64,000 bases of DNA from the IMG/VR virus record IMGVR_UViG_3300025867_000005; one strand, 5' to 3'. Within the stretch, counting starts at the first letter, position 1. Every line of letters starts with the position of its first letter. Source of the stretch: a virus (lineage: Duplodnaviria; Caudoviricetes). Positions 1 to 59,729 of this stretch are shown here, in pieces. Below the pieces are notes generated by a model, which saw nothing but the letters and a program-made list of their open reading frames with translations, was not told the origin of the DNA and searched no databases. Position numbers and translations under genes: made by a program.

Positions 1-3000
1 TTCAAACGGCACGGCGACAAATCTTACGGTTGTCAAGCCGCTTATCGTCAAAGGGACAGACCATTCGAATCAAGACGTGTTCTTCCCTCAGTCAAACGGC
101 GTACAGGTTGTAGGCGACCCGGATCAGGATTTATTCTACGGACTAGGCGGAACAATAGGAAAGCCCGCTTGGTGGATGCAGACCTACAGGAACGAAAACA
201 GTTCTGGAACCAACAGCCCGGAATTCATGTATTTCAGCAATGCCAGAATCGCCAAAGACATCATGATTCTTTCCGAAGGCGGTAGAATGTCAGTCAACAA
301 GACATCGAATATCCTTGACTATCACAGCGATTACCAAGGATATCAAATGGGAGCGCTCAATGACTTGAAGTTTAGCGGAGTATATTCATATTCCAAACAG
401 AGGAAATATGATGTCTATATTTCAAGTCTCGGGAATCCAGACAGATGGAGCTGGAAAAAGAGTTATGACAATGGGTTGACATGGGTAGAGTCTGGTGTCA
501 CAAATGAATGCTCAACAACAAATATGGTTGTTGAAAACGGTGTCCGTGTAAGTTTTGATTATGTCACTGGACACAATCTTCATGATGCGTGGATAAGAAC
601 CGGATATGCCCAGCTTCCACCAGCTACCGTTCATATGGCACCACAGGCATATGAAGAAATAGGGTTCACGACCAACTACAACAATGAAAGCGGATGGGAA
701 GACCTTACCTATACAATGGCGTCTACAGTGCATTCCAGTGACAGGTACGCATTGACAAATACATCTTCTGCCATTTATCTCGGAAGGGGAATAAAAATGA
801 ATTCCACCTTCTACAATCTTGCGGAATACGGTGTCGGCCTTGCGCTTGTTTTCGAATATTGGAACGGAAGCACATGGATGCCGATTACCGTAGGCAGTCA
901 TCATCTTAGTGACGGAACCGCCAATTTCACCCAGTCAGGACAGGTGTCTTGGGACAAATTCCTTATTTCCGATTGGAAGACAGGGGGTGTGACAAAATAC
1001 AGCGGAGAAGATTTGTTCTGGCTTAGAGTCCGCACTTCCGTAACTCCTTCCATCCCGGCGAAAATCAAGAACATTACCCCTCAGGGAAAAGTGAGATTCG
1101 GAATAATGGGAAGACAGTACGATGACGATTACAGCTTTTATGTTGACGGTTTCGGAAGCAGCTATCAGATCAAGGGTTATCAGTCTGATACCGGTTCTAC
1201 TTTTGAAGCCAACCAGCTTATTACCGCCGGGGCCGTCAATAAGCTTCTTGATGCCTTCAGAACCTTCAATTTGTATTTTTCTACGAATTTCAATCCTGTT
1301 TCAGCCCCCAACAGATTGCTGACTTCAATGGCAGTGCCGGTTTGGAAAACCACAACGGCATTAAGCCCAGGCACAAACCTTGTCGCCTGTTTTGTTTCTA
1401 CGAACACCATAGGGAGCACCTTGATTCCGGCAGGAACCAAGTATTCAACAACTTATTACGCTTCTAAAACAACGTCTCAGGGAGCAAACGCCTATTGGGA
1501 ACTTATCGAAGTAGGCGACGGAATCACAAACGTTATTGCAAGTTCAGCGGAAACTCCACTTGTTCAGACGACTCCTACCATCATTTCCACATCCGTATAT
1601 CCGGCAACGAACTTCAACGTACAGTCATCCCATTATCTCGGCGTAAGAGTTTACGGAATTCGTCCGGGAAATGCCGTAAGCATGGTGCTTTACGGTGGCG
1701 GCAATTACGGGTCTTCTCTTTCAAGTCCAAGCGTCGGAACTACAGGCGGCGGGGCGGGAATTATAGACGCACCCTTAGACGGAATAGCTTACGGAAGGAA
1801 GAATCAGACTTGGGTCCAGGTCTTGGAACCCAACGGAAGCGGAGCTTCACTTAGCGGTGTCGTAAAGGAAACAGATCCTAAATATGTCAACGCCCTTACC
1901 AACGAAACAGATTCAAAGGCTCTTTCTTCTCTTGCGGATTTCGCCGCAACAAATCAGGCCAAAGCCGTTTATTCCCAAGACGGGGGACAATGGATAGACG
2001 CTACTGGTGGCGTTTGGAGAATCTATACTAATGTCTGGAAACTTACGCTTTCAGATATGGGAATTTCTATGGTTATCCCGAACCTTGGAAACCCTCTTCC
2101 TTCTTCTCGGTTTGAGATTTCAAATGTCAGTGGGGTCACCGGATTGACGTTTGTTGTAGCTCCTAGAGACGTAGGAATTGATGTCGTCGGGTTTGCTTAT
2201 CTACACAATAATGAAATGAGTTATTGGGAAGATGATTCTGTTCCTCTTGCCGAAACAAATATCATATTGGACACTTTTATCGGAAGTTTCCCTCAGAATC
2301 CAGGATATTTGAGATACGAAGCGATTGCGACCCAACTTGTAGACGGAGTTGTTTTCAAAAGTGATACCACAAACTTTGCGACAGCCGCACAGGGATTGAA
2401 GGCAGATACAGCTATTCAATCGGCTTACGGCATCACTGTTTCTTCAAACAATTTTGTTGTCGGTGTCGGCACTAGAAACACAACGATATGGCCTAACCAA
2501 ATTACTGTTTCTCAGGCGGCTGGTGTCAGCGGAGGTATAGATTCGGACGGGTTGTTTGAAAACTTTAATACCCCTCCTTATACCAGACATTTTGATTTCC
2601 CTTTAACAGCAGGTATCCTCGCCAGCCTCGCGGATGTCACGAACAGGACTGTCAACCAGATCATAATGACGACAAACGCTATGGGAATGGCCACGAATAT
2701 GAGATGGAGGGAATCCTCTGTATGGAAGTCCTATCCTTTAGGCGGCGCTTCAGAACTTCCTACCGGAGTAATTACCAACGGCTATCTTGGTGACATAGGA
2801 TTCACCAACAATCTTACGGTAGCAGGAACTAATTTCGCATCTGTATTTAATTCGGCTTCAGGAGACTTCTATCTACAGGGAACGAATTTCGGACCAAGGA
2901 TTGCAAACAGTATTACAAACGGGATGAACGAAATAACTTTAGGAGGTATTGTCCTGAGCAATGATACCGTTAATGGAGATTACGGTAATTTTACATATTC

Positions 3001-5065
3001 TGTTCAGTTAGGGAATCTTTCAAGCATTCAGCATCGGTCGGCTGACGGGAATGACATGATTTTCTCAGGATGGTCAAGTGATTTTAGTCACGCCTTCGAC
3101 CGTTTCAGATTATTTGCAGACGGAGGGGCTATCTTCCCTACTGGAAACGTTTATACCGTAAATTCCGGAACCATCACCAATCAGGTCGTTGTTTCCCCTG
3201 TCGGAAGCAACCAGGTTTCCCAACTTTGGAAAGGCAGCAATACGGAATTTCAGGCTCTAGTCGTTACAGATCCGAATAGCCTCTATGTTGTCTCTGATGA
3301 CAACAGCGTATACAGTGACAATGGAATCTATCATCCGGTAGAAACCTACAATGTATTCCTTGCTCCTGTGACGACCATTGTCTCGCTCGCACAGGATAAG
3401 ACGGTTTACAGAATCAACGTCGATACGAATGCCATTCTTGCAGTAGATTCTTCAGCCATGAATCTAACAGATAGGGAAGCAAAATTTGACCTCGAATTGA
3501 ATGTTTCGGAACCCAACCTTCCTATCAGTTTCGTCGGGTTTGAATTCAGTCAGACTCCTGACCTTTCGGCAACGGGGATATACAGATACGTATGTAATGT
3601 TATTGACAACCAGAAAGTCATTGTAACCATCCCTACTATTACCGGTCTAGCCTATGTTCCTTATACCGGAGCCACAGGCACCGTTGATATCGGAACCAAT
3701 TCAATCAAGATCGGAGGCAACGCCCTTGTCGACAAAGTTCTGACGGTAAACGGATATGCAGAGGTTTCAAACAGGATAGAACTTCTTGGACCAGGAAGTT
3801 ATATCGGAGGTTTGGATGTTCTTTCAGGAGATTATTCTGGAAGCACGAAAGCTGTGTCTGGAACCTTCCTTTATCAAGAGCTGTACACTTCTTTCACGAA
3901 TTCCGTTACGAATTCAATGCAGATTTCAGATCAGCATCTTTCCCAGATGTTGCAAACGAATATCAATCCTAGAATTCTGTCTGTTGAGTCAAATTCCTTG
4001 GAATTTTCAGAATGGCTGCCTACAAACACATATGTAAAAGTGGAAGAAGATCCGATTGCCGGACCCAGAATCACAGAACTCGAAAACCATACGAATAACT
4101 GGAACCAAGCTTATTCATGGGGAAACCATGCGGTTGCCGGATATCTTCTGATTTCTGACTTCACGGAATGGAAATCCACAAATACCTATGTGAAGACGGA
4201 AGTAGATCCACATTTCTTCGAATGGCTGGGAACAAATACTTATCCGAAGACAGACAGCGGGGCTTCAGCCTTCCGCTATTACAACTACGGAAATCCGGAA
4301 ACGGAAGAAAGTCCGGAAGCGTGGTTTACATTCGATGCCGGAACCATCACAGCATTCGATTATGTCGCGGGAAGAGAAAAGGTTGTCATACCTTGGGAAA
4401 TCGGAGGTGTGCCTGTTGTGAAAATCGGGAATTCAGCGTTTTCAGGAGATTCGATTACCAACGTCTATGTTCCTAGAAGCGTGACGAATATCGGAAATTC
4501 GGCTTTCATGAACTGCGCCAGTCTTGCGGCTGTCTATTATTCCTGTGACGTTCCCGTTGAAGGAGTCGGAATATTTCTGTCTGCCCCCGGCGTTACAAAC
4601 TATATCGTCAATCTGTTTGCCAAGAACTGGGGAACGGAATACGGAAGCCGTCCTGTCGTAAGGGCATCTGTCTATTCCGACAGCTTCTATCAAGGTGGCC
4701 AGCTTGTAGCGACGACGCAATACGTCAATCAGGTTATTTCTTCAACGATATCTCCTGAAACCGACCCCTATATGGAATGGACGGGGCAGGTCGTTCCAAG
4801 CGGAAGCAGCGCAACAATTACGGCGGCACACGGAAGTCTTCCTTATCTTATCCTTACGAGGACGACTACCTTGTCTATAGATTCAACTGGCTTCGGCACA
4901 TCTGGCGTCAGTAGGATTTCTTTAAGCGTTCAGGCTGGAAGTTATACCTTGAATATGGACGAAAATATCACGCTATCGACAGAAATAAGTCTCCCTACTA
5001 CAGGGTGGGGAACTATTTTGTTGCGTAGAGTATCAAACGATGCATGGAAGGCGGCACAACTTTGA
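1..5065 (+). CDS. Large mosaic tail-fibre/adhesin-like protein, 5'-truncated (frame is open from the window edge)
   Basis: Frame 2 is open from base 2. Fibritin-foldon-like motif GIIDAPLDGIAYGRKNQTWVQV, ETDP-type repeats, fibre motif NWNQAYSWGNHAVAGYL, BspA-type LRR near the C-terminus (VVIPWEIGGVPVVKIGNSAF...VTNIGNSAFMNCASL). Confidence 0.7.
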   Translation, partial: SNGTATNLTVVKPLIVKGTDHSNQDVFFPQSNGVQVVGDPDQDLFYGLGGTIGKPAWWMQTYRNENSSGTNSPEFMYFSNARIAKDIMILSEGGRMSVNKTSNILDYHSDYQGYQMGALNDLKFSGVYSYSKQRKYDVYISSLGNPDRWSWKKSYDNGLTWVESGVTNECSTTNMVVENGVRVSFDYVTGHNLHDAWIRTGYAQLPPATVHMAPQAYEEIGFTTNYNNESGWEDLTYTMASTVHSSDRYALTNTSSAIYLGRGIKMNSTFYNLAEYGVGLALVFEYWNGSTWMPITVGSHHLSDGTANFTQSGQVSWDKFLISDWKTGGVTKYSGEDLFWLRVRTSVTPSIPAKIKNITPQGKVRFGIMGRQYDDDYSFYVDGFGSSYQIKGYQSDTGSTFEANQLITAGAVNKLLDAFRTFNLYFSTNFNPVSAPNRLLTSMAVPVWKTTTALSPGTNLVACFVSTNTIGSTLIPAGTKYSTTYYASKTTSQGANAYWELIEVGDGITNVIASSAETPLVQTTPTIISTSVYPATNFNVQSSHYLGVRVYGIRPGNAVSMVLYGGGNYGSSLSSPSVGTTGGGAGIIDAPLDGIAYGRKNQTWVQVLEPNGSGASLSGVVKETDPKYVNALTNETDSKALSSLADFAATNQAKAVYSQDGGQWIDATGGVWRIYTNVWKLTLSDMGISMVIPNLGNPLPSSRFEISNVSGVTGLTFVVAPRDVGIDVVGFAYLHNNEMSYWEDDSVPLAETNIILDTFIGSFPQNPGYLRYEAIATQLVDGVVFKSDTTNFATAAQGLKADTAIQSAYGITVSSNNFVVGVGTRNTTIWPNQITVSQAAGVSGGIDSDGLFENFNTPPYTRHFDFPLTAGILASLADVTNRTVNQIIMTTNAMGMATNMRWRESSVWKSYPLGGASELPTGVITNGYLGDIGFTNNLTVAGTNFASVFNSASGDFYLQGTNFGPRIANSITNGMNEITLGGIVLSNDTVNGDYGNFTYSVQLGNLSSIQHRSADGNDMIFSGWSSDFSHAFDRFRLFADGGAIFPTGNVYTVNSGTITNQVVVSPVGSNQVSQLWKGSNTEFQALVVTDPNSLYVVSDDNSVYSDNGIYHPVETYNVFLAPVTTIVSLAQDKTVYRINVDTNAILAVDSSAMNLTDREAKFDLELNVSEPNLPISFVGFEFSQTPDLSATGIYRYVCNVIDNQKVIVTIPTITGLAYVPYTGATGTVDIGTNSIKIGGNALVDKVLTVNGYAEVSNRIELLGPGSYIGGLDVLSGDYSGSTKAVSGTFLYQELYTSFTNSVTNSMQISDQHLSQMLQTNINPRILSVESNSLEFSEWLPTNTYVKVEEDPIAGPRITELENHTNNWNQAYSWGNHAVAGYLLISDFTEWKSTNTYVKTEVDPHFFEWLGTNTYPKTDSGASAFRYYNYGNPETEESPEAWFTFDAGTITAFDYVAGREKVVIPWEIGGVPVVKIGNSAFSGDSITNVYVPRSVTNIGNSAFMNCASLAAVYYSCDVPVEGVGIFLSAPGVTNYIVNLFAKNWGTEYGSRPVVRASVYSDSFYQGGQLVATTQYVNQVISSTISPETDPYMEWTGQVVPSGSSATITAAHGSLPYLILTRTTTLSIDSTGFGTSGVSRISLSVQAGSYTLNMDENITLSTEISLPTTGWGTILLRRVSNDAWKAAQL

Positions 5066-6201
5066 AAACATTAATTTTAACCCTATTACTCCCTCTTTAC
5101 TGTTTCGGGTCTTTCAACCAAGACTTTGATGAAAATTTTCTTTCGGCTCTCTCGACACAGCCGACAGGAACGGTTTTGACTTTCACATATGAAACCACAT
5201 ATCCGTCTGCAATCGTATTAGGGTCAACTTACTCTGGGCCAGCAGATGCGTCAAAAGCATTATATAATGCTGGAAACGGATGGAAACAGTACTCTTCAAA
5301 AACGATAAACGTGTCATCGAAGAAAATCTTTTTCAAGGGAGACTGGAGGACAGGTGCCGGAACTATTGCACAACTTTTCAACCAAACGTTTACAAACAAT
5401 CATTATGTCTCGATGTCCGGAGGATTTGATATCAACGGAAGCTATAAACCAAATATGTTTCAATCTGTTTTCTACGGATGTAACGGAATACGAAGCATAC
5501 CTTCTGGACTTTTCGGAAGCGTAACCGGGATGCCGCAAATAGGAATGTGTCAGTCGACGTTTAGTAGCTGTAATGCCATTACGGGCGCTATCCCAAGCAA
5601 TTTGTTTGGAAACATTGAAGGACCGTATGCTAATAATATGTTCGCATATACTTTTTATAACTGTTCGAAACTGACAAACGACATTCCTGCCAATCTTTTC
5701 GGATCGGTAACAGGGGCTCCTGCATATGCGATGTTCCAATCAACATTCAGCGGGTGTACCTCTTTACGGACGATACCTGATTATCTGTTCGGAGACCTCA
5801 AAGGAGCTCCATCCGGATACATGTTTGATAAAACGTTTTACAATTGTAGAGGGATTACAAATCTGCCATATGGAATCTTTGGAAGTTTTGGAAACGGGTT
5901 GATCGGACCTCCTGCTCCTGATATGTTTAGTCAAACATTCCGAGACTGTATAGGTCTTACAACTCTGCCTTATGCATTATTCCAAGGTCTTACCACTGGC
6001 ACAGCTCAAAACAACATGTTTCTGTATACCTTTTACGGCTGTAAAAATATCACATCGAGTTCTGCGACTTTAAACAGCGGCGTAAAACTCTATACCAAAT
6101 TCCCTGCTCCAGACTTTACGTTCGTTCATATCGGCGGATGTTTCAAAGATTGTACAAGCATGTCAGACTATGCCACGATGCCAGATGTCTGGAAACAATA
6201 A
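5062..6201 (+). CDS. Secreted LRR protein (31-aa MFxxTFxxCxxLTxxIPxxLFG repeats), paralog 1
   Basis: TTG start overlaps the upstream TGA, with GGAAGG upstream. Signal-peptide-like MKTLILTLLLPLYCFG, repeats, C-cap CFKDCTSMSDYATMPDVWK. Confidence 0.75.
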   Translation: MKTLILTLLLPLYCFGSFNQDFDENFLSALSTQPTGTVLTFTYETTYPSAIVLGSTYSGPADASKALYNAGNGWKQYSSKTINVSSKKIFFKGDWRTGAGTIAQLFNQTFTNNHYVSMSGGFDINGSYKPNMFQSVFYGCNGIRSIPSGLFGSVTGMPQIGMCQSTFSSCNAITGAIPSNLFGNIEGPYANNMFAYTFYNCSKLTNDIPANLFGSVTGAPAYAMFQSTFSGCTSLRTIPDYLFGDLKGAPSGYMFDKTFYNCRGITNLPYGIFGSFGNGLIGPPAPDMFSQTFRDCIGLTTLPYALFQGLTTGTAQNNMFLYTFYGCKNITSSSATLNSGVKLYTKFPAPDFTFVHIGGCFKDCTSMSDYATMPDVWKQ

Positions 6202-6235
6202 AGAAAATCTGTTTTTCAATGGGGGACCAATCAAA

Positions 6236-7372
6236 ATGTCTAAAACTTTTACACTCACCATATTGTCTGTCCTATCGGCTTTCATTTGTACGGCGGAGCT
6301 TTATGTCAAGGATTCAGGTCATACAAACAAAGCTTTCGTTTATGTCAAGCAAAGAGAAGGGTCTATTACCAACGGTTCTAATATCTGTGCCGTCTACAGC
6401 GGAGACAAGCTTGTAAGCAATCCGAGAAGGAAAAGTTTTCCAACCAGTCTTGAACCTATTCTTACATTTACGTATTTAAGTGGACATCCGTCTTCAATAA
6501 ATCTTTTTTCCTCCTATCCCGGCCCCGCCAATCCAGATAAGGCTTTTTATGATTCCGGACAGGGTTGGACGACCTATACGGGTCGTACGATTCCTGTCTA
6601 CGGGAACCGTGTCAGATTCAAAGGAGATTGGAGAGACAGCGAAGGAAGATTTTATCGGATGTTCGATTCTACTTTCGGAAGAGACAATCCTGTAAAACTT
6701 ACAGGAAAATTCGACACAAGAGGTTTGCAGTTTGTCCCTGAAATGTTCTATTCTACCTTTCAGACTTGTTCCGGCCTTACCGGACCTATTCCAAAAGACC
6801 TTTTCGGAGACGTATCCGGGACGCCACAAGCATATGTGTTTTATTCCACATTTTACTTTGACGGAAATCTTTCTGAAATTCCACCTGGTCTTTTCAGCAG
6901 GCTTTCAGGAAATTATGCGGATTCCATGTTCCGATACACATTCTACGGCTGTATAGGGATTACAAATTCAATCTCAGACAATTTCTTCGGAAATCTTTCA
7001 GGGAATCCTTCACAGTACATGTTTACCGCGACATTCGGAGGTTGTCAAAAACTTACGGGAGATATTCCGAACAAGCTTTTCGGAAACATTTCGGGAACTC
7101 CTGCGACCGGCATGTTCAGAGAAACATTTATGAACTGCACAAAGCTTTCAGGGAACATCCCTGTCGGCTTGTTCGGAGATATATCAGGCACGCTTCCTAC
7201 CTATGCTTTTTTATCGACATTCATCAATTGCTACGATCTTACAGGGCCTTCGGCGTTAATGCCGGACGGCACAACCTATCTTTATCAACAGTTTTCTGGA
7301 TATACCACCACCTGTTACCAGAATTGCACCAACCTTTCGGATTATGCTTCGATTCCGACTGGATGGAAGTAG
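6236..7372 (+). CDS. Secreted LRR protein, paralog 2
   Basis: ATG at 6236 after GGGGGA. Signal-peptide-like MSKTFTLTILSVLSAFICTA, shared FKGDWR domain, LRR repeats, C-cap CYQNCTNLSDYASIPTGWK. Confidence 0.75.
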   Translation: MSKTFTLTILSVLSAFICTAELYVKDSGHTNKAFVYVKQREGSITNGSNICAVYSGDKLVSNPRRKSFPTSLEPILTFTYLSGHPSSINLFSSYPGPANPDKAFYDSGQGWTTYTGRTIPVYGNRVRFKGDWRDSEGRFYRMFDSTFGRDNPVKLTGKFDTRGLQFVPEMFYSTFQTCSGLTGPIPKDLFGDVSGTPQAYVFYSTFYFDGNLSEIPPGLFSRLSGNYADSMFRYTFYGCIGITNSISDNFFGNLSGNPSQYMFTATFGGCQKLTGDIPNKLFGNISGTPATGMFRETFMNCTKLSGNIPVGLFGDISGTLPTYAFLSTFINCYDLTGPSALMPDGTTYLYQQFSGYTTTCYQNCTNLSDYASIPTGWK

Positions 7373-7400
7373 GAATTGCTTATGTCTGTTTTGAAAACTC

Positions 7401-7408
7401 TTTTGATA
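7401..7408 (+). promoter_or_regulatory. TTTTGATA motif, candidate late-promoter element
   Basis: The same motif is intergenic and just upstream of + strand genes at 7401, 15156, 31204, 44042, 50595 and 56691. Confidence 0.5.
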
Positions 7409-7433
7409 AAAGTAACAACTTAGAGGTGAAGAC

Positions 7434-7892
7434 ATGATCATTTATACAGCGATTAAAGAGTTTGTCATCAAACCGGAAAACATCTTGGTTTCGATAGGCG
7501 ACACTCTCAATAAGTTTGAAAACGCCGTTATGGTTTCAGTAGGTGGACAAAACCTTACTGAGCGTACGTTTTATATGTGGGTAGGAATGCCTGAAAGTTT
7601 GGACTATCTATCAGAATCTTCCATCCTTCCTGATCCGCCTGTTCCAGGCGACGGCAATACGGCAGGAGGCACAGAAACATTAGCAGCGGGATTGGAAAGC
7701 CTTACTGTTACAGGAAAAGGCTGGTCATTTACCCCTTCTTCCGTTGTAGCGATTGTATGCAAACCGGCCAATGGGTCCAACATTATAGCTTCAATCATCA
7801 GCGGGTCGATTTCTTCCAACGGATTCACGGCGGAATTTTCCGCTCCTATTCCTGATTCAAGTTATACTTTATTGTATATCGCTTCTGCTTAA
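7434..7892 (+). CDS. Hypothetical virion-associated protein with beta-rich C-terminal domain
   Basis: GAGGTG RBS. C-terminus (SISSNGFTAEFSAPIPDSSYTLLY) resembles small fibre-tip beta domains. Confidence 0.5.
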   Translation: MIIYTAIKEFVIKPENILVSIGDTLNKFENAVMVSVGGQNLTERTFYMWVGMPESLDYLSESSILPDPPVPGDGNTAGGTETLAAGLESLTVTGKGWSFTPSSVVAIVCKPANGSNIIASIISGSISSNGFTAEFSAPIPDSSYTLLYIASA

Positions 7893-7907
7893 TATATGGA
7901 GGTAGAG

Positions 7908-9524
7908 ATGAGAAAGATTTTGTTTTCATGTGTCGCTTTTTTGCTTTTCGGACTTTCCTGCTTTGCGGCTGGAGAAACCCCGATATCCAATCTGAAACTG
8001 ATGACAACTGCCAACGGAAACCTTAATTCCTTTACGAATTTGGGAACCCTTCAATCATCTACTGGCGCTTTTTCTGTTGTTAATGTCGGAGGCGTTACTC
8101 ATAACAGTATGGGAGAAACGACAATCCTTGAAACTTGGACAAACGAAGTCGGGAACGTCACGTCCCAAAAGGTCGTTACGGCAGGAACAACCAACCTGTC
8201 TTATTACGGAGCCGGAACTGGTTCTGGAGGTATTACAAACGGACAGACTGGGGATATCGTTCTAGGAGACGTTAAGATATCCGGTTCGTCAATTTCATCT
8301 GCTCTTGATCCTAGTACGGGAGTTATAAATTTGTTTGAAGGATCGTACTTGATAGATTCTAAGCTTGGATCGGCTTTTGGCGGACGTTATAATACTCCAT
8401 CGATTATTTCATATGGACAGAATGGTGGTGTCGGAGACGCTGACCTATATCGTGGATTTAGTTATAAATACGGACCTCTGGTTTATCAAGTTATGCATGA
8501 CGGTAGCATTATGACTTCCAATAGCATCACGGCTTATGGAACCAATACGGCTTTACGTTTTCAAACAGTAAAAAATGGCGTTACTTCTGTTGTGGTAACA
8601 TCTGATTCCTCTGTTTCGAATACCGTGGAGAAACTTTGGAAGGGTAATGCTGCTGAAGTCACAGCTATTACGAATGTAGAACCCGACACGATATATTTCG
8701 CAGCAAGTGATTCTACAGTTTTTTCAGATACTGGAATTTATCATCCGACTGAGATTTACAATGTTTATACCGATCCTCAGACGACTGTCGTGTTAGTTGT
8801 AGAATCTAAGAACGTATATAAGATCAATGTCAACACCAATTCAATTATTGTTATGGATGCTTCAACTCTTAATTTCACAAACAGAGAAGCAAAATTTGAA
8901 CTAGACCTGAATATAACCGTTACGAATATCCCATCGATTACGTTTGTCGGGTTTGAATTCCAACAGGAACCTGATTTTACCGTAACGGGTTGTTATAAAT
9001 TTGCATGTAGCATGATAGACACTACCACTGTACAGGCTAGGCAGACTTATCCGACAGTGTATGAATGGAAAAAACTTATAGGAGTTTCAGATACTGGACA
9101 GAATGAACCACGTAATGGGGTAATAATTAAAGTCATTGTTGCATCAGAAATAACTAATTTCTTTCAGTTTTATGTCCCAGATCGTGAAGCATTAATTTTA
9201 GACATGAGAGCGTTTATTTATTATCTTGACAGAGACACACCATTTCATATTTCCTATGCAAGATCTGAGCTATCTGATTACTCTACTTTTCAAGATCCAA
9301 TAACTAATTATGTTCCAAGTGCAAATCAGAGTGGAATAAGTTCTGGATATACTGGTACAAAAATGTTCGTTCCTCATGTTGATCAGGACTTCACTGAATT
9401 GGGATTGAAAATAGTTATCATGAAACCTGCAATATCCAATGGTGACTGGATGTTATATACACCATTTTCTCGTAGAGCTAACGAACTAGAAATCAAGGCT
9501 TACAATGCTGGCTGGAGACCTTAA
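7908..9524 (+). CDS. Secreted fibre-like protein sharing a ~140-aa module with the 1-5065 protein
   Basis: GGAGG RBS. Signal-peptide-like MRKILFSCVAFLLFGLSCFAA. Module LWKG...GIYHPxExYNV...REAKFxLxLNx...FVGFEFxQxPD occurs in both proteins. Confidence 0.7.
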   Translation: MRKILFSCVAFLLFGLSCFAAGETPISNLKLMTTANGNLNSFTNLGTLQSSTGAFSVVNVGGVTHNSMGETTILETWTNEVGNVTSQKVVTAGTTNLSYYGAGTGSGGITNGQTGDIVLGDVKISGSSISSALDPSTGVINLFEGSYLIDSKLGSAFGGRYNTPSIISYGQNGGVGDADLYRGFSYKYGPLVYQVMHDGSIMTSNSITAYGTNTALRFQTVKNGVTSVVVTSDSSVSNTVEKLWKGNAAEVTAITNVEPDTIYFAASDSTVFSDTGIYHPTEIYNVYTDPQTTVVLVVESKNVYKINVNTNSIIVMDASTLNFTNREAKFELDLNITVTNIPSITFVGFEFQQEPDFTVTGCYKFACSMIDTTTVQARQTYPTVYEWKKLIGVSDTGQNEPRNGVIIKVIVASEITNFFQFYVPDREALILDMRAFIYYLDRDTPFHISYARSELSDYSTFQDPITNYVPSANQSGISSGYTGTKMFVPHVDQDFTELGLKIVIMKPAISNGDWMLYTPFSRRANELEIKAYNAGWRP

Positions 9525-9526
9525 TC

Positions 9527-11962
9527 ATGATTATTAAAAATATATTCTTTATAGTATTATTATCATGTATTTCTGTCTTCGGACAAATCTATCAGATGCC
9601 TAATACTGATGTTACTAATGGATTAATTGCTCATTATAAATTAGACGAAATGTCATATGATGGGACCGCTGGTGAAGTTAAAGACAGTAGTGGTAATGGG
9701 AATAATGGGACTAGTTATGGAGGCGTTCTTACCAACCCTGGGAAAATAGGCAGAGCGGGATATTTTGATAGTGTAAGTCATATTAATGCCATGTTACCTT
9801 CCGTATTGGAAATGCCAGTATCCTTATCATTATGGGTTAATTTTGAAGAAAATAAATTAATCACATCAGTTTCAACCGTTATTTCTTTTGAATCGTATAG
9901 GCCAAGAATCAGTTTTACGACATATAGAGGATATCTTTCGTATGAAATATATCATTCAAGTCTAGGCGGAGATATTATATTTAAAGTAGGTAGCATAGGG
10001 GATAATAAATGGCATCTAATGACACTAGTACTATCATCAACAAACTCTATATGCTATGTAGACGGGACTAAGAATATGCCATTGATTGATGCTGTTTGTC
10101 CTTCGTTTTTAAACGGTTGGATTCGTCTAAGTTCAGTGACTGATGATAATTCCCAAAAATTCAATGGTCTTATTGATGATGTCCGTATTTACGACCGAGC
10201 ACTGTCTCCTGAAGAAGTCATTAAACTTTACAATCTAGGATTTCCTAAGAAACAGATAGTGGTATATAGTCCTAAAACTATTCCCTATGAATGTCTTCCC
10301 ACAAATGGACTGATTGCCCATTGGAAGCTTGATGAAACGAGTTATAATGGAACTCAGGGAGAAGTTAAGGATAGTTCTGGAAACGGAAATAATGGGACAA
10401 GTCTTGGACATGTAATTACCAATCCAGGAAAGATTGAACGCTGCGGGATATTCGATGGCCTAGATACGGGAGTGTATGTGCCCGCCCTTGACAACTATTT
10501 AGACACAAAATCCGCCGCTACATTTTCTTGTTGGATTAAAACATCTAAAGTCCAGCATCGTAAACTGATCTTGGGATGGTGGTGTTCTTATGATAATTGC
10601 ATAAGGCTTGAAAGCGGATATTTACGTTTTTTTTTGAAAACAGACACAACACCATATTCAACAATACAGATTGAAGAATCCCAAATAAATGATGGAAAAT
10701 GGCATTTCTTATGTGGAACATATGACGGCGCGAAGCAAGTGCTTTTCGTAGATGATGATTTTCAATCGGTTGATCTGACGGGTATCATAGTGTCTCCCGA
10801 CATATTTGGGTTTGGCACTATCGGGACTCTTTCTGAGTATAGCTTTGACGGTTCTATAGATGATGTCCGCGTCTATAACCGTGCTTTGTCTCATAAAGAA
10901 GTTCAAGAACTTTATAACGCTAGACCGATTAAGGATTCAGCAGTAGCAGTGTATAGTGGAAATACATTGGTCAGTAATCCGTTGAAGAAGGATTACCCGA
11001 ATACTGTTTCGGAGAATATCGAGCCGGTCACGCTGACATTTAAGTATGTCAGCACATATCCAGCGGCCATAACGATTGGTAGAGGTTCGTATGGACAGCC
11101 TGCCGATCCGTCCAAAGCTCTGGTAGACGCCGGTGACGGCGTGTTTGTACCGTGGACAAGCAACACGATAACGCTCAAAGGTAAGCAGATCAGATTTAGG
11201 GGTGACTGGCGCAATACAGCAGGAAACTTCATGGAATTGTTCAGTAGCACTTTCATTGGCGGACATTATGTCACAATGTCAGGTGGGTTTGATTTTGAGG
11301 GTGCGCCAGCGGCCTACATGTTCCAATCCACTTTCTATGGCTGCTCAAATCTGACAGGTCCGATTCCATCTGGTTTGTTCGGCGCGATTTCTGGCACGCC
11401 AGCGGCCAACATGTTCAATAGCACTTTCACTGGCTGCTCAAGGCTGACAGGTCCGATTCCATCTGGTTTGTTCGGTAATATCTCCGGTGCGCCAGCGGCC
11501 AACATGTTCTATGTCACTTTCTATGAGTGCTCAAATCTGACAGGTCCGATTCCATCTGGTTTGTTCGGTAATATCTCCGGTGCGCCAGCGGCCAACATGT
11601 TCAATAGCACTTTCACTGGCTGCTCAAGGCTGACAGGTCCGATTCCATCTGGTTTGTTCGGCAATATGTCTGGCACGCCAGCGGCCGACATGTTCAATAG
11701 CACTTTCACTGACTGCTCAAGGCTGACAGGTCCGATTCCATCTGGTTTGTTCGGTAATATCTCCGGTGCGCCAGCGGCCAACATGTTCAATAGCACTTTC
11801 TATAGGTGCCCAAATCTGACAGGTGAATCCGCCTTGATGCCAGACGGCACAACACACTTATATGAGCAGTTTCCGACTGCCAGCGGAACTGACTGTCAGC
11901 GATGCTATTACAACGCGACCGGGCTGAACGATTACGCGACAATGCCAAGCGCGTGGAAGTAA
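9527..11962 (+). CDS. Secreted protein with two LamG/concanavalin A-like domains plus an LRR array, paralog 3
   Basis: Signal-peptide-like N-terminus. Two copies of NGLIAHxKLDE...KDSSGNGNNGT...WH...IDDVRxYxRALS, then an FRGDWR domain and 31-aa repeats. Confidence 0.85.
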   Translation: MIIKNIFFIVLLSCISVFGQIYQMPNTDVTNGLIAHYKLDEMSYDGTAGEVKDSSGNGNNGTSYGGVLTNPGKIGRAGYFDSVSHINAMLPSVLEMPVSLSLWVNFEENKLITSVSTVISFESYRPRISFTTYRGYLSYEIYHSSLGGDIIFKVGSIGDNKWHLMTLVLSSTNSICYVDGTKNMPLIDAVCPSFLNGWIRLSSVTDDNSQKFNGLIDDVRIYDRALSPEEVIKLYNLGFPKKQIVVYSPKTIPYECLPTNGLIAHWKLDETSYNGTQGEVKDSSGNGNNGTSLGHVITNPGKIERCGIFDGLDTGVYVPALDNYLDTKSAATFSCWIKTSKVQHRKLILGWWCSYDNCIRLESGYLRFFLKTDTTPYSTIQIEESQINDGKWHFLCGTYDGAKQVLFVDDDFQSVDLTGIIVSPDIFGFGTIGTLSEYSFDGSIDDVRVYNRALSHKEVQELYNARPIKDSAVAVYSGNTLVSNPLKKDYPNTVSENIEPVTLTFKYVSTYPAAITIGRGSYGQPADPSKALVDAGDGVFVPWTSNTITLKGKQIRFRGDWRNTAGNFMELFSSTFIGGHYVTMSGGFDFEGAPAAYMFQSTFYGCSNLTGPIPSGLFGAISGTPAANMFNSTFTGCSRLTGPIPSGLFGNISGAPAANMFYVTFYECSNLTGPIPSGLFGNISGAPAANMFNSTFTGCSRLTGPIPSGLFGNMSGTPAADMFNSTFTDCSRLTGPIPSGLFGNISGAPAANMFNSTFYRCPNLTGESALMPDGTTHLYEQFPTASGTDCQRCYYNATGLNDYATMPSAWK
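11305..11824 (+). repeat. Coding tandem repeat, 93-bp unit, about 5.6 copies
   Basis: Units begin GCCAGCGGCC at 11305, 11398, 11491, 11584, 11677 and 11770; consensus PAANMFNSTFTGCSRLTGPIPSGLFGNISGA. Confidence 0.97.
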
Positions 11963-12001
11963 TGCGGCGGTGAGGACTGTTTAAACAGGAGAATTTTGAA
12001 A

Positions 12002-12295
12002 ATGAGCGAGGCATCATCTACCAAACAGAAACTAGACGAATTCCGGGCGTCGTTGCCGCCTGGCGACGAGCACACCGAGCCGACGCGGGAAATGCTCAGG
12101 GTTACGTCGTACGCCTGTAATGGTGCGCCTGACAAGCAGCAGGCCCTTGCTAACGCGGTTGTCGCATTTCAGTCATTCGGAGGACAATTAACTGGATTCG
12201 TTTATGAACAAATAATCTACACCAGAGACATAAGTGATGAAGAACTTCAACAGGTAAATAACTATTTGATTAAGAAGTGGAAAATAAAATTCTAA
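12002..12295 (+). CDS. Short chimeric ORF whose C-terminal part is an orphan LamG-like domain end
   Basis: AGGAG upstream. GC-rich first half, then AT-rich GFVYEQIIYTRDISDEELQQVNNYLIKKW, typical of a LamG-like C-terminus. Confidence 0.5.
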   Translation: MSEASSTKQKLDEFRASLPPGDEHTEPTREMLRVTSYACNGAPDKQQALANAVVAFQSFGGQLTGFVYEQIIYTRDISDEELQQVNNYLIKKWKIKF

Positions 12296-12307: not shown

Positions 12308-13036
12308 ATGCAATACGCTAAATTCGTTTCAGGCACAGAAATAAAATTACCGATAGAAGAAGATTATCTTGAAGATGGCATTACGTTTAAAGACCCAAGC
12401 CTATGGTATGAAGTCATTGAATCTTCTAAACCTACAGATGTCAGTGTCTTCAAAGATTACGTCTGTCATTATTCCCTAGTTTCTTGGAATTTCGGAGAAC
12501 CTAAACAAATAGTCCAGTCTTGGAAAACTGTCATAACGGAACCGGTTGGAAGAGTCGGGAAGCTTGTTGACGGCAACATTATAATGCCATCAAAAAATGA
12601 AAAGATCAATGGTTCTATCATCTGCAATTATGATAGGCTTCCCAACAGTAGAAAAATGGAAGACGGATGGATTCTTATTGAAGAAACGGAATCCCCTACC
12701 GATGGAAAGTCATATGTGCAAAAGGGTGAAATAATCCCAGATGCCGTCTATGGAAGCCGGATTAAAATCGTTTGGGAAGAACAGCCGGAAGTCGTCCCTG
12801 TAACCAGACAGAGAGTTCTGGATTTACGTGCAAAGTATGTTTCTACAACCCACAGTCTTTGTCAATTGGCAGGAGTTGAAGTCAAAGACAAGCTTGAAGA
12901 CACTGAATATGAAACCACGGTTATCAAGGCGATGTCAACAGATGCAGGTACCGCGATGATGCTTACTCAGACCATTATGTATTGTTTCTTCCAGCTCAAA
13001 ATGGAAGACGGAGGTGATGCATGGGACAGGATATAA
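12308..13036 (+). CDS. Hypothetical protein, possibly a fibre-assembly chaperone
   Basis: AAGGAG RBS, 242 aa, lies after the fibre genes. Function inferred from position only. Confidence 0.45.
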   Translation: MQYAKFVSGTEIKLPIEEDYLEDGITFKDPSLWYEVIESSKPTDVSVFKDYVCHYSLVSWNFGEPKQIVQSWKTVITEPVGRVGKLVDGNIIMPSKNEKINGSIICNYDRLPNSRKMEDGWILIEETESPTDGKSYVQKGEIIPDAVYGSRIKIVWEEQPEVVPVTRQRVLDLRAKYVSTTHSLCQLAGVEVKDKLEDTEYETTVIKAMSTDAGTAMMLTQTIMYCFFQLKMEDGGDAWDRI

Positions 13037-17132: not shown

Positions 17133-17145
17133 TTAGAGAGAAAAT

Positions 17146-19438: not shown

Positions 19439-19492
19439 GTTTTACTTCCCGAGGATATCTGACAGGGTATCGCTGTCAAGCATTGGATCAGC

Positions 19493-25494: not shown

Positions 25495-25522
25495 GTCTTT
25501 TATCTCCTTTGTTATGCCGTAT

Positions 25523-25551
25523 ACTATATAGAATTTTATCCTACTTGTCAA
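25523..25551 (-). promoter_or_regulatory. Sigma70-type promoter TTGACA-N17-TATAGT for rtcB
   Basis: Near-consensus boxes upstream of a GGAG RBS. Confidence 0.8.
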
Positions 25552-44072: not shown

Positions 44073-44840
44073 ATGAACCACTTCTTCCTAAAATCGATGC
44101 TTCTTGTTTCTCTTTCACTTTTTTCTTTCAGAAGTGAAGCAGTAGAAATTGATGTCGGACTGGCATTGAATAGCTTTAACTCCAGAATCCTTAGTCTGGA
44201 AAGCAAATCCGGCGCTCAGGAAATGCTCAACAATGGATTTGTTTCTTATATGGACAGAGGTTATTCTCAAGCCCTGACGGATAATCTAACGAATCTTCTT
44301 CTGAAAGTAGACACAAGATTCGGGATGACAAACCTTACACTTTTCGGGGTTGAAACCGTGCTTATAGAAGGTGTCCCTATCGTACAGACGAATGTCGTCT
44401 GTAAATTTATAGACAATCACACTTTTGAACAAATTATTTCCGGCATCAATTCAAATTTCAACAGCCATATTTCAGAAACCAACGCCCATTACGTAACCAC
44501 GGAATTGATAGGTGCCGTTTCTGTAACCAACAGTTATCAATATGTTTTGCCTTCCGTTTCAGAAACAAACAAATTCGTTCTGTCTTCAAATGCAGTATAC
44601 CGCATTTCAAATCTGACCCAGGATATCATCTTTGACACTCCTGAAACAGTATCAGGTAAGTATTCAAGTTTCCACATACACCTTACAAAAGGAAGCGGGA
44701 CTGTTACTTTCTTCCCGAATATAACCTGGATCTACGGAGAACCACCGGAATTGGACATTGAAGGGACAACATATGTGTTCGGGTTCGAATCTTTAGACGG
44801 CGGGCAAACCTGGAGAGGGTGGATTGAATATACTTACTAG
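44073..44840 (+). CDS. Secreted fibre-like protein
   Basis: GAGG RBS; signal-peptide-like MNHFFLKSMLLVSLSLFSFRSEA; fibre motif HISETNAHYVT; C-terminal TVTFFPNITWIYGEPP...DGGQTWRG module. Confidence 0.65.
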   Translation: MNHFFLKSMLLVSLSLFSFRSEAVEIDVGLALNSFNSRILSLESKSGAQEMLNNGFVSYMDRGYSQALTDNLTNLLLKVDTRFGMTNLTLFGVETVLIEGVPIVQTNVVCKFIDNHTFEQIISGINSNFNSHISETNAHYVTTELIGAVSVTNSYQYVLPSVSETNKFVLSSNAVYRISNLTQDIIFDTPETVSGKYSSFHIHLTKGSGTVTFFPNITWIYGEPPELDIEGTTYVFGFESLDGGQTWRGWIEYTY

Positions 44841-45561
44841 ACTTCTTTTTCTGTTTCCTTTATTTCTGTTCGGTGGAGAAATCCGTTTCCGAGAGGACTT
44901 CAGCAATCCCGATTTCAAGGTTTCCGGAGAAACTGTTTCTGTCGATGTAAAAGACGGGATTAATGTTCAGGAACCTGGTTCACCGGTTTTGCCTTGTTTC
45001 GTTTTCAGCAAGCCGATAAGCAGAAATGAAAAGGTAGAAAACATTTCTTTTACGGTTTTCTCTTCACAAAAGTATGTACTAGAGAAACGGGTTAAAACAG
45101 CAGAAACACCTTTTAATGAAAACGGTATCGGGAAGGTTCAGGATTCACTTTTTACCGCCGTTACAGGAACCAATGTTTTCAGTTTCCACAGCTTTACAAA
45201 TGTCACAGATTTAAAATTCAACACCTTTATCTCTACAAGGATGCTACGGCCTTTTGATTTCAGCATCGTTTCAGATTCAAACCCGCTTACTCTTTAGGCT
45301 TTGACGATAAAAGATATCCGTCTTCCCAAAGGCATGCTTTTGGACATAGATAAAACCGTGATTGAAGAAAATGATATTTCTAATATCCTTCTGGCATATT
45401 TCCCTTCCCTTTCGGACTGGAATACTTCTAAAATAAGAATCAATTTCTTTATCGATGATTACAAAAAACAGAAACCAATTTCTATTGGAAAGCAATCAAG
45501 TGAAATTCTAGCATTTGAATCAAATCTTGTAAGGCTATTTCTTAAACCAAAACGAACTTAA
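44824..45561 (+). CDS. Secreted protein with a gingipain (C25) propeptide-like N-domain; one in-frame TAG at 45295-45297
   Basis: Signal-peptide-like start, EPGSPVLP motif; ORFs 44824-45297 and 45301-45561 share a frame and are separated only by TAG-GCT. Confidence 0.5.
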
Positions 45562-48457: not shown

Positions 48458-48880
48458 ATGTTGAAGAAAATCATGTTCGTTGTTATTATGTCAGTAGTTT
48501 CCGCATATGCAGCTCCGATTGATGATTTAGCCAAAACCTTGTATCATGAAGCCCGTGGAGAAGGGGAAACGGGAATCCGTGCCGTTGCCAGCATCATCGT
48601 CAACCGCGCAAAGAAAGACGGAGCCGTTACCCCTGTTGCATTGTCGAAAGTTGTCCGTCAGAAGTATCAATTCAGTTGTTGGAACGGACAAACCAATTTG
48701 AAAACAGGAAAAGGCCAGTCTTGGTTGGTTTGCCGGATGGTTGCAGGAGAAATGGTAAACGGGCAATTCAAATCCGTTCACAATTACACGCATTACTACG
48801 CCTTTCGGAACTGCAATCCTAAATGGGCAAAAGGCAAGAGTAAAATGGTTATCGGTAATCATGCTTTCCTGAATCCTTAA
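48458..48880 (+). CDS. SleB/Hydrolase_2-family cell-wall hydrolase with signal peptide
   Basis: LYHEARGE, AVASIIVNR, YQFSCWN, THYY and IGNHAF motifs. Confidence 0.92.
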   Translation: MLKKIMFVVIMSVVSAYAAPIDDLAKTLYHEARGEGETGIRAVASIIVNRAKKDGAVTPVALSKVVRQKYQFSCWNGQTNLKTGKGQSWLVCRMVAGEMVNGQFKSVHNYTHYYAFRNCNPKWAKGKSKMVIGNHAFLNP

Positions 48881-51338: not shown

Positions 51339-51342
51339 GAAA

Positions 51343-59727: not shown

Positions 59728-59729
59728 CA

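What the first reader, a model, noticed from the sequence alone, without database searches (positions are those of the whole stretch)
5062..11962. Fibre and adhesin-like phage proteins carry cleavable signal peptides
Seen: genes at 5062, 6236, 7908 and 9527 (also 44073 and 44824) begin with a basic-hydrophobic-small-residue signal pattern. They are built from virion-type modules: the 7908 protein shares ~140 aa with the foldon-bearing fibre, and 44073 has fibre motifs. Known: tailed-phage virions assemble in the cytoplasm and fibres normally lack Sec signals. Inference: either receptor-binding parts are exported, matured in the periplasm and joined to virions at lysis, or the phage displays adhesins or exclusion proteins on the host surface. 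Either would be an unusual system.
Basis: partly seen in the sequence, partly recalled or inferred. Interest (0 to 1): 0.75.

Follow-up and report, generated by a model that had tools for sequence, protein, structure and literature searches.

The report
Phage fibre proteins carrying export signals
An uncultured 304-kb phage puts ordinary bacterial secretion signals on all six large fibre- and adhesin-like proteins of one operon, so this host-recognition gear probably folds outside the cytoplasm where phage particles are built; the scan has met the same oddity in many other phages, and I found no paper that explains it.

Summary
Genes at 5062, 6236, 7908 and 9527 start at ribosome-binding-site-supported codons with a basic, hydrophobic, small-residue leader, and their relatives keep such leaders. 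The same contig from a public metagenome shows that the "foldon-bearing fibre" (2226 aa; its start lies 1616 bases upstream of the window) and a 1199-aa gene before it also have leaders. So all six large proteins of the operon carry one, and the three small ones do not.

Corrections: 44824 is a decayed remnant of a secreted C25-type peptidase, not a fibre. The leader-like start at 50916 is the first membrane helix of a holin-like protein.

The proteins are built from virion-type parts: a sugar-binding-like end module also found on leaderless fibres, and a BspA/PARCEL-type leucine-rich repeat also fused to a P2-like baseplate protein. The phage also exports its endolysin by a signal peptide.

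Export is likely (about 0.8) but untested. What happens next is open: fibres joining particles at lysis (0.4) or non-virion binding proteins (0.33). Cultured Cellulophaga phages have leader-bearing tail-end proteins that their records say were found in virions by MS/MS, which favours the first.

The scan has found this pattern before on other DNA, in notes from over 200 genomes. I found no paper describing it.

The parts
1..5065 (+). Last 1687 codons of a 2226-aa fibre (foldon-like motif, BspA-type LRR_5 near the end). The gene starts 1616 nt upstream of the window with a signal-peptide-like leader.
   Evidence: Frame open from base 2. Full gene at L012 13641-20321, leader preceded by a Shine-Dalgarno site. 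LRR_5 hit.
5062..6201 (+). 379-aa exported-type protein: leader (about 5062-5109), then a domain of 31-residue leucine-rich (BspA/PARCEL-like) repeats.
   Evidence: AF2 pLDDT 85, solenoid. Weak LRR fold hits. TIGR02167 PARCEL repeat 40.2 bits against a cut-off of 30.
6236..7372 (+). 378-aa paralogue of the 5062 protein, with its own leader (about 6236-6295).
7434..7892 (+). 152-aa protein without a leader, conserved at the same place in a related phage contig (L005). Role unknown.
   Evidence: 41% identity; gene order.
7908..9524 (+). 538-aa fibre-like protein: leader (about 7908-7967), a poorly modelled fibrous half, a beta-sandwich shared with the big fibre, and a C-terminal sugar-binding-like module.
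9527..11962 (+). 811-aa protein: leader (about 9527-9583, Gln after the predicted cut), two LamG/ConA-like domains, then the 31-residue repeat domain.
11996..12295 (+). 99-aa ORF without a leader. Not studied.
   Evidence: no family hits.
12308..13036 (+). 242-aa protein without a leader, conserved after the LRR gene in L005. Role unknown.
   Evidence: 50% identity over 167 aa.
44073..44840 (+). 255-aa protein with a leader and a C-terminal part like tail-fibre C-termini.
   Evidence: phrog_7760 at 2.9e-7. Leader kept in P0218 and in L010 9806-10615.
44824..45561 (+). Remnant of a secreted C25-type peptidase gene. The leader and N-terminal ~105 aa are joined to the C-terminal ~65 aa, followed by an in-frame TAG and the last ~60 codons. 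About 700 codons, including the peptidase domain, are missing.
48458..48880 (+). 140-aa endolysin candidate (SleB/Hydrolase_2-like) with a textbook signal peptide. Shows that the phage relies on host Sec for a late protein.
   Evidence: Hydrolase_2 is on record for the matching gene of L010.
50916..51843 (+). Lysis genes: a holin-like multi-helix protein (50916-51338) and a spanin-like gene (51343-51843) with an internal in-frame start at 51553 that gives a lipobox (FSGC) lipoprotein. Argues for a two-membrane host.

Best explanation
The six large proteins of this operon (1199 aa, 2226 aa, 379 aa, 378 aa, 538 aa, 811 aa) are genuine Sec / signal peptidase I substrates and make up the phage's outer host-recognition gear.

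Proposed route: late in infection they are threaded unfolded across the inner membrane of a two-membrane host. The leader is cut off, and they fold (the fibrous ones as trimers) in the periplasm. No outer-membrane route is encoded in them, so they stay there. They meet the cytoplasm-built particles only when holin, exported endolysin and spanin merge the compartments. They would then dock through their conserved mature N-terminal segments.

Shown here:
- the leaders and the start codons that support them;
- conservation of the leaders in relatives;
- the fibre-type, LRR-type and lectin-type modules;
- the phage's own use of Sec for lysis proteins.

Inferred: export, cleavage, periplasmic folding and docking at lysis.

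My odds: export is real, about 0.8; this whole route, 0.4.
For: Leaders and starts.

Conservation of leaders:
- 20 of 20 in the LRR family;
- 37 of 55 or more in the 7908 family;
- the same run of leader-bearing genes in a related phage contig, L005, and in a short-tailed phage, L001.

Virion-type parts:
- the 7908 end module also sits on leaderless fibre-like proteins of up to 1375 aa;
- 257 BFVD fold matches at E <= 1e-3, of which the named ones near the top are mostly phage tail-fibre-type proteins, among them Cellulophaga phage fibres;
- the repeat domain is fused to baseplate protein I of a P2-like Klebsiella prophage;
- a LamG match to an S-PM2 virion structural protein.

No outer-membrane route: no lipobox on the six, and no T9SS or other export-domain hits.

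Sec is used by this phage: a signal-peptide endolysin and a lipobox spanin-like gene.

Precedent: in cultured Cellulophaga phages phi10:1 (gp091-gp094) and phi18:3 (gp085-gp087), the tail-end proteins begin with leaders followed by Gln. Their records call them structural 'based on experimental MS/MS proteomics'.
Against: - No trained signal-peptide predictor and no experiment; export and cleavage are inferred.
- The operon lies far from the tail-tube genes. Earlier notes place those about 33 kb beyond the window's end, and a roughly 30-kb minus-strand block separates the operon from the head genes.
- The operon abuts metabolic genes.
- No docking partner was identified.
- The closest cellular relatives of the repeat domain are secreted bacterial surface proteins, one of them in a plain chromosomal setting.
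- The phage lineage also encodes secreted proteins that are surely not virion parts, such as the C25 peptidase.
- Leaderless fibre-like candidates exist elsewhere in the window (15231, 17146).
- The cultured jumbo phage PTm1 and the myovirus phi4:1 of Bacteroidota hosts have leaderless fibres.
- The Cellulophaga proteins share no detectable sequence homology with these, so that precedent is an analogy.
- Later checks of sister findings in this scan priced this reading near 10 in 100.
Confidence: 0.4

Rival explanations
1. The proteins are exported but are not parts of the particle. They form a phage-encoded set of periplasmic or released binding proteins (fibre-like lectins, LRR adhesins). They would act on the host envelope or on neighbouring cells: masking or clearing receptors, excluding other phages, keeping progeny from sticking to debris, or making infected cells sticky. 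In this view they are copies of receptor-binding modules put to a non-virion use.
For: - The repeat family's cellular relatives are secreted surface proteins (BspA/PARCEL type), one in an ordinary chromosomal neighbourhood.
- Bdellovibrio makes signal-bearing, phage-like trimeric fibres for its own surface (PMC10769870).
- Porphyromonas phages encode signal-bearing proteins that the authors suggest have the potential to modify the host outer membrane (PMC10367356).
- The operon sits apart from the head and tail genes.
- The lineage encodes other secreted non-virion proteins.
- Leaderless fibre-like candidates exist elsewhere in the window.
Against: - There is no route across the outer membrane for surface display.
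- 16.6 kb of coding DNA in six large, fibre-shaped paralogues is a heavy outlay for exclusion, and the known exclusion proteins (Llp, Cor) are small lipoproteins.
- In L001, on the parts of the 35.7-kb contig that I read, the two leader-bearing proteins were the only fibre-like genes.
- The Cellulophaga records place such proteins in virions.
Confidence: 0.33
2. The hydrophobic N-termini do not drive export during infection. The fibres assemble in the cytoplasm as usual, and the leader either stays on (perhaps buried in the particle or used as a transient membrane tether) or is removed by a phage protease.
For: This is the textbook route. For Porphyromonas phage capsid proteins with predicted signal peptides, the authors proposed cleavage by the prohead protease (PMC10367356). 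Nothing here measures export.
Against: - The segments have the full three-part signal-peptide layout and are mostly too short (10-15 residues) for a stable membrane span.
- One relative carries a canonical lipobox instead (P0022).
- About 30% of relatives, and all the Cellulophaga examples, place Gln right after the predicted cut. That matters only if signal peptidase I cuts in the periplasm (Q-rule, PMC5837995).
- Leaders sit only on the outer, fibre-type proteins, not on terminase, portal or other window genes.
Confidence: 0.15
3. Artefact: wrong start codons or chance hydrophobic N-termini.
For: Some database gene calls of relatives start upstream or downstream of the leader.
Against: - Shine-Dalgarno sites sit before each leader-bearing start.
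- Alignments of relatives begin at the same Met.
- All six large operon proteins carry a leader (four by the rule; the two upstream ones by reading), against four further passes among the other window genes.
Confidence: 0.03

Closest known systems
Tail-end 'structural proteins' of cultured Cellulophaga phages: phi10:1 gp091-gp095 (NC_021802) and phi18:3 gp085-gp087 (NC_021794)
   Same: A run of consecutive fibre-, spike- and lyase-type proteins at the end of the tail module, just before the lysis genes, each starting with a signal-peptide-like leader. The 7908 model matches phi10:1 gp094 and a phi12:1 tail fibre by fold. The records say the proteins were found in virions by MS/MS.
   Different: No detectable sequence homology. 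Those phages are 54-71 kb, and their leaders all obey the Bacteroidota Gln rule, against 2 of 8 here. I found no paper that discusses their leaders, and I could not read the original proteomics paper.
Bdellovibrio bacteriovorus MAT (mosaic adhesive trimer) fibres (Caulton et al. 2024, PMC10769870)
   Same: A signal peptide, then a conserved N-terminal part, then a long phage-like trimeric fibre with swappable binding tips. Many paralogues in one genome.
   Different: MAT fibres are cellular proteins shown on the predator's surface. They share a ~130-aa N-domain and often an S74 chaperone-protease, neither of which I found here. These genes are in a phage.
BspA-type LRR / PARCEL (TIGR02167, DUF285) bacterial surface proteins
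   Same: The 31-residue repeat domain of the 5062, 6236 and 9527 proteins passes the PARCEL repeat cut-off. Distant relatives carry DUF285 or LRR_5. The model is an LRR-like solenoid. A signal peptide is the rule in the cellular members.
   Different: Pfam LRR_5 and DUF285 do not hit the window proteins directly. The repeat unit is longer (31 residues). The genes are phage-borne and sit next to fibres.
Baseplate protein I of P2-like Klebsiella prophage ST16-OXA48phi5.4 (gp35, 1008 aa)
   Same: Carries the same repeat domain (34% identity over about 190 aa). This shows the domain serves as a virion part.
   Different: It is fused behind a cytoplasmic baseplate domain, with no leader.
Sec-dependent phage lysis proteins (signal-peptide and SAR endolysins, spanin lipoproteins)
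   Same: Late phage proteins that use host Sec. This phage has both (48458, 51553).
   Different: Those are lysis proteins, not fibre-like binding proteins.
Signal-bearing genes beside phage fibre genes: T5 Llp, phi80/N15 Cor, lambda Lom (own knowledge)
   Same: Exported proteins encoded next to receptor-binding genes. Llp and Cor block the receptor.
   Different: They are small proteins unrelated to fibres and are not virion-like. Here the fibre-like proteins themselves carry the leaders.
Signal-peptide genes of Porphyromonas gingivalis phages (Matrishin et al. 2023, PMC10367356)
   Same: Phage genes with Sec signals, some obeying the Q-rule, read as adaptation to host secretion.
   Different: Those are genes of unknown function, capsid proteins and spanins. 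Tail fibres are not mentioned.

Membership tests
Sec / signal peptidase I signal peptide | Positively charged n-region, hydrophobic h-region of about 7-15 residues, small residues at -3 and -1 | tested here: met
   Own rule. Met by 5062, 6236, 7908, 9527, 44073 and 48458, and by the 2226-aa protein. The 1199-aa leader has the hydrophobic and cleavage-type parts, but its n-region has no net positive charge, so it fails the charge test of the rule.
Sec / signal peptidase I signal peptide | The leader is at the true translation start | tested here: met
   Shine-Dalgarno sites 5-10 nt upstream. Relatives align from the same Met.
Sec / signal peptidase I signal peptide | Call by a trained predictor (SignalP 6, DeepSig) | not testable with these tools
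   No such tool was on hand.
Sec / signal peptidase I signal peptide | Export and cleavage observed | not testable with these tools
   Needs fusions or N-terminal proteomics.
Lipoprotein (signal peptidase II) signal | Lipobox with Cys at +1 | tested here: not met
   No canonical lipobox on the six proteins. One relative (P0022) and the spanin-like 51553 start have one.
BspA-type LRR / PARCEL surface-protein repeats | Match to a curated repeat model above its cut-off | tested here: met
   TIGR02167, 40.2 bits against a cut-off of 30, for the 5062 protein. Pfam LRR_5 and DUF285 hit only distant relatives.
BspA-type LRR / PARCEL surface-protein repeats | Solenoid fold of stacked repeats | tested here: inconclusive
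   AF2 pLDDT 85. All PDB matches are LRR proteins, but at E 2e-3 or weaker and with low TM-scores.
Phage tail fibre / receptor-binding protein | Fibre-type modules shared with known phage fibres | tested here: met
   39% identity module shared with the 2226-aa fibre. BFVD fold matches to phage tail fibres. phrog tail-fibre hits for 44073.
Phage tail fibre / receptor-binding protein | N-terminal domain that attaches to baseplate, tail or another fibre | tested here: inconclusive
   No Pfam or PHROG hit on the N-terminal parts. Conserved short segments follow the leaders, but no partner is known.
Phage tail fibre / receptor-binding protein | Presence in the virion | not testable with these tools
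   The phage is uncultured. There is only the analogy to the Cellulophaga phage records.
Bacteroidota type IX secretion substrate | Conserved C-terminal sorting domain | tested here: not met
   No Pfam or NCBIfam hit to any T9SS C-terminal domain.
Bacteroidota Q-rule substrates | Gln right after the cut in most signal peptidase I substrates | tested here: not met
   2 of 8 leaders in this phage (9527 and the 1199-aa gene). About 30% in the homologue sets. So the host phylum remains open.
Bacteroidota general O-glycosylation targets | Excess of the D-(S/T)-(A/I/L/M/T/V) sequon in exported proteins | tested here: not met
   9 observed against 8.9 expected from shuffles in the leader-bearing proteins.
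Bdellovibrio MAT fibres | Shared ~130-aa beta-rich N-domain after the signal peptide; S74 chaperone-protease in many members | tested here: inconclusive
   No Peptidase_S74 hit in Pfam. The MAT N-domain itself was not compared, because no MAT sequence was fetched.

The most novel reading that the evidence does not exclude
The outer fibres of this jumbo phage, and of the many uncultured and some cultured phages with the same pattern, are not assembled in the cytoplasm. They are exported by Sec, trimmed and folded in the periplasm, and snap onto finished particles only at lysis. That would be a two-compartment assembly route for tailed phages.
Probability: 0.35. Interest if true: 0.85.

Novelty: new variant of a known kind. 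Interest (0 to 1): 0.6.

Why it matters
Textbook tailed-phage assembly happens wholly in the cytoplasm. If receptor-binding fibres routinely mature in the periplasm, several things follow:
- assembly has a late extracytoplasmic step;
- fibres can use periplasmic folding chemistry;
- they are kept away from cytoplasmic receptor precursors;
- recombinant fibres for host-range work should be made with export signals.

If instead these proteins are non-virion products, phages carry large arsenals of secreted copies of their own receptor-binding modules, which bears on superinfection exclusion and on how infected cells interact with neighbours.

Either way the pattern affects annotation. A signal peptide should not be used to rule a gene out as a tail fibre. 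The question can be tested now in cultured Cellulophaga phages.

Tried and rejected
- Complex prediction of the leaderless 152-aa protein (7434) with the mature N-terminal 119 aa of the 7908 protein gave no verdict. It counts neither way.
- Bacteroidota O-glycosylation sequon: no excess.
- Q-rule as a host marker: only 2 of 8 leaders. The host remains uncertain. One related contig is binned in a Paludibacteraceae MAG, and relatives encode a PorU-like C25 peptidase.
- Searches of cultured phages: no nucleotide match for the window, and no protein match for 7908 or P0154.
- Scan of IMG/VR with 7908: nothing.
- Scan of genome contigs with the LRR alignment: one short MAG contig only. The alignment of the 7908 end module was too diverse to scan with.
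- Whole-genome search was not possible because no genome is held, so I could not list all fibre and baseplate genes of this phage.
- Profile comparison of the 7908 end module with phi10:1 gp092 and gp094: no homology.
- The 15231 protein has no similarity to the big fibre.
- The promoter and terminator scan of the operon did not exceed chance.
- Atlas look-alikes were below useful scores.
- Six literature searches for signal peptides on tail fibres found no description.
- The Holmfeldt 2013 paper behind the MS/MS notes is not in the library.
- Rejected: TAG recoding as the reason for the in-frame amber after 44824. All three stop codons are in normal use, and the gene is a deletion remnant.
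Full report
WHAT THE WINDOW IS. The window is part of an uncultured phage of about 304 kb. It carries a large terminase (59718-61514) and a portal gene (62002 onward). The window's own proteins are on record on contigs of 303,951-304,450 bp from public metagenomes. No whole genome is held for it. All three stop codons are in normal use and Shine-Dalgarno sites are evident.

THE OBSERVATION.
- Starts. The four genes in the stated range start at 5062 (TTG), 6236, 7908 and 9527 (ATG). Each has a purine-rich ribosome-binding site 5-10 nt upstream. The 7908 start has GGAGG at the ideal distance, and the upstream ATG at 7896 lies inside that site.
- Leaders. Each protein opens with one to three basic residues, an uncharged hydrophobic run of 10-16 residues and small residues at -3/-1.
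- Specificity. A simple rule for these features passes 8 of 66 window genes: these four, 44073, 44824, 48458 and 50916.
- Conservation in the repeat family. All 20 aligned members of the 5062/6236 family keep the leader although its sequence drifts (57% pairwise identity against 72% in the mature part). One relative has a canonical lipobox instead (P0022).
- Conservation in the 7908 family. An exhaustive profile-free search found 95 cluster representatives. Of the 55 that are full-length, 37 pass the rule, and several more have a leader behind a mis-called start.
- Conservation for 44073. A 59%-identical relative and the matching ORF of a related contig (L010) both keep a leader.
- Verdict.

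I fetched the same contig through an upstream paralogue (L012). The operon begins at a divergent junction with a 1199-aa gene and then a 2226-aa gene. The window holds only the last 1687 codons of the 2226-aa gene. Both upstream genes start with a leader, and the 2226-aa one follows a strong ribosome-binding site. The 1199-aa leader has no net positive charge in its n-region, so it fails my rule's charge test, although it looks like a signal peptide by eye.

The "foldon-bearing fibre" is therefore not a leaderless virion reference. All six large proteins of the operon carry leaders, while the three small ones (152, 99 and 242 aa) do not.

A related phage-like contig (L005) has the same layout. 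It encodes homologues of the 152-aa and 242-aa proteins without leaders (41% and 50% identity). Between and after them lie four leader-bearing genes, including a 47%-identical N-terminal match to 7908, an LRR_5 protein and a LamG protein.

A short-tailed phage contig from a biogas reactor (L001) has two leader-bearing genes between its head genes and a lysis cassette with a lipoprotein. One combines the 7908 end module with LRR_5, and the other belongs to the 5062 family.

WHAT THE PROTEINS ARE.
- The 5062, 6236 and 9527 proteins share a C-terminal domain of 31-residue repeats (93-nt DNA periodicity; 43% identity). It passes the curated PARCEL surface-repeat model and has distant relatives with DUF285 or BspA-type LRR_5. 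It folds with confidence (pLDDT 85) into a solenoid whose only PDB matches, all weak, are LRR proteins, including BspA-type surface proteins of gut bacteria.
- The same repeat domain occurs in two very different settings. One is secreted proteins in plain bacterial chromosomes. The other is a fusion to baseplate protein I of a P2-like Klebsiella prophage, with no leader.
- The 9527 protein adds two LamG/ConA-like domains.
- The 7908 protein has a long N-terminal half that a monomer model cannot fold, as is usual for trimeric fibres. Next comes a confidently modelled beta-sandwich (residues 285-395, pLDDT above 90), shared at 39% identity with the 2226-aa fibre. It ends in a module resembling carbohydrate-binding modules.
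- Against predicted viral structures, the 7908 model has 257 matches at E <= 1e-3. Most named matches near the top are phage tail-fibre-type proteins.
- The end module also closes leaderless fibre-like proteins of up to 1375 aa in other phages.
- So "built from virion-type modules" is correct.

CORRECTIONS AT THE SECOND SITE. The 44073 protein has a leader and a tail-fibre-like C-terminus. The 44824 ORF is not a fibre. In the related contig L010 the matching gene encodes a 948-aa protein with a leader and a C25 (gingipain/PorU-like) peptidase domain. The window copy joins the first ~105 residues to residues 812-878. It then has an in-frame TAG and the last ~60 codons, so it is a deletion remnant. 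The leader-like start of 50916 is the first helix of a holin-like multi-span protein.

IS EXPORT PLAUSIBLE? The phage uses host Sec for late proteins. The 48458 protein is a SleB/Hydrolase_2-type wall hydrolase behind a textbook signal peptide. The spanin-like gene at 51343 has an internal in-frame start at 51553 that yields a lipobox lipoprotein, which also argues for a host with an outer membrane.

The leaders are mostly too short for stable membrane anchors. About 30% of the leader-bearing relatives place Gln directly after the predicted cut. That habit makes sense only for signal peptidase I substrates of Bacteroidota (PMC5837995).

In this phage only 2 of 8 leaders do so, and the Bacteroidota O-glycosylation sequon is not enriched. 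The host phylum therefore stays open, despite a related contig binned with a Paludibacteraceae MAG.

None of the six proteins has a lipobox, a T9SS C-terminal domain or any other recognisable outer-membrane route. If exported, they should collect in the periplasm until lysis.

WHICH FATE? Three readings remain.

(a) The proteins are the particle's outer fibres and join it at lysis. For this reading:
- their fibre architecture and module sharing;
- the lack of a surface route;
- the large paralogue set, typical of multi-fibre jumbo phages;
- the podovirus L001, where they were the only fibre-like genes on the parts of the contig I read;
- a precedent in cultured phages.

The precedent is as follows. 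In Cellulophaga phage phi10:1, the last five tail-module genes before the holin-like genes (gp091-gp095) all start with leaders followed by Gln. The record annotates gp091-gp094 as structural "based on experimental MS/MS proteomics". The same holds for gp085-gp087 of the podovirus phi18:3. Fold search linked the 7908 model to phi10:1 gp094 and a phi12:1 tail fibre. There is no sequence homology, so this is an analogy, and I could not read the proteomics paper.

(b) The proteins are exported but are not virion parts. For this reading:
- the repeat family's cellular kin are secreted surface proteins;
- Bdellovibrio makes signal-bearing phage-like fibres for its own surface (PMC10769870);
- Porphyromonas phages carry signal-bearing genes that the authors suggest have the potential to modify the host outer membrane (PMC10367356);
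- the operon lies far from the head and tail genes;
- the lineage encodes other secreted non-virion proteins;
- leaderless fibre-like candidates exist in the window;
- cultured Bacteroidota phages PTm1 and phi4:1 have leaderless fibres.

(c) The leaders are not used for export.

I put these at 0.40, 0.33 and 0.15, with 0.03 for artefact and the rest unassigned. Later checks of sister findings in this scan priced reading (a) near 0.1. I rate it higher because of the Cellulophaga records, but it remains unproven.

RELATION TO EARLIER WORK. The scan has flagged the same pattern many times on other DNA: 245 notes in at least 237 genomes. Several follow-ups had already named the Cellulophaga precedent. 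I reached it independently through the fold search and checked the records myself.

New in this case:
- the setting, a 304-kb phage;
- the size of the set: six proteins and 16.6 kb, including a 2226-aa fibre;
- the BspA/PARCEL-type repeat family, which links secreted bacterial proteins, leader-bearing phage proteins and a leaderless baseplate fusion;
- the weak adherence to the Q-rule.

I found no paper that describes signal peptides on tail fibres.

VERDICT. This is a new variant of known kinds (phage fibres; phage-encoded exported proteins). It is of real interest because a cheap re-analysis of existing virion mass spectra could settle it.

Noticed in passing
window 44824-45561; L010 10599-13445: The 157-aa ORF and the 86 codons after its TAG are the two ends of a 948-aa secreted C25 (PorU/gingipain-like) peptidase that is intact in a related contig. 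About 700 codons are deleted here. This explains the 'in-frame amber' without any recoding.
   Followed up: yes
window 48458-48880: The endolysin candidate (SleB/Hydrolase_2-like) carries a textbook signal peptide, so lysis in this phage probably uses a Sec-exported wall hydrolase.
   Followed up: partly
window 51343-51843: Spanin-like gene with an N-terminal membrane helix and, in the same frame, an internal start at 51553 that would give a lipobox (FSGC) lipoprotein. This would be an unusual same-frame nesting of the two spanin parts, or a single two-anchor spanin.
   Followed up: no
homologues P0122-P0199; L012 13641: Two recurring short segments follow the leaders in the 7908-module family. 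One contains hydrophobic-hydrophobic-T-N ('VVTN'). The other is a helix-like 'KDFL.YLK..TDQ' type, also at the start of the mature 2226-aa fibre. One relative (P0172) has the second type with no leader. These are possible docking or trimerisation elements.
   Followed up: partly
L004 (NC_049450) 4666-7692: A P2-like Klebsiella prophage has a 1008-aa 'tail protein I' in which the baseplate protein is extended by the same 31-residue repeat domain.
   Followed up: partly
L001 18431 onward (biogas reactor contig): A short-tailed phage contig encodes a 4089-aa polyvalent protein (ddrB-ParB, RadC, LPD3 domains) right after its tail and internal-protein genes.
   Followed up: no
window 23104-25572 (minus strand): An 822-aa RtcB-type RNA ligase gene has an HNH endonuclease domain in its middle (residues ~278-362). 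It may be an intein or other insertion.
   Followed up: no
window 15231-19047: A plus-strand island inside the minus-strand block encodes leaderless structural-looking proteins. The last ORF (18697-19047) looks by eye like the end of a BspA-type LRR_5 domain, but Pfam and PHROG scans found no family in it. These could be conventional, cytoplasm-made fibre parts.
   Followed up: partly
L014 (NC_021802) 758-1231, 19215-19607, 23531-23845: Besides its five leader-bearing tail-end genes, Cellulophaga phage phi10:1 has two small lipobox genes and one small gene whose signal peptide is followed by Gln, all of unknown role.
   Followed up: no
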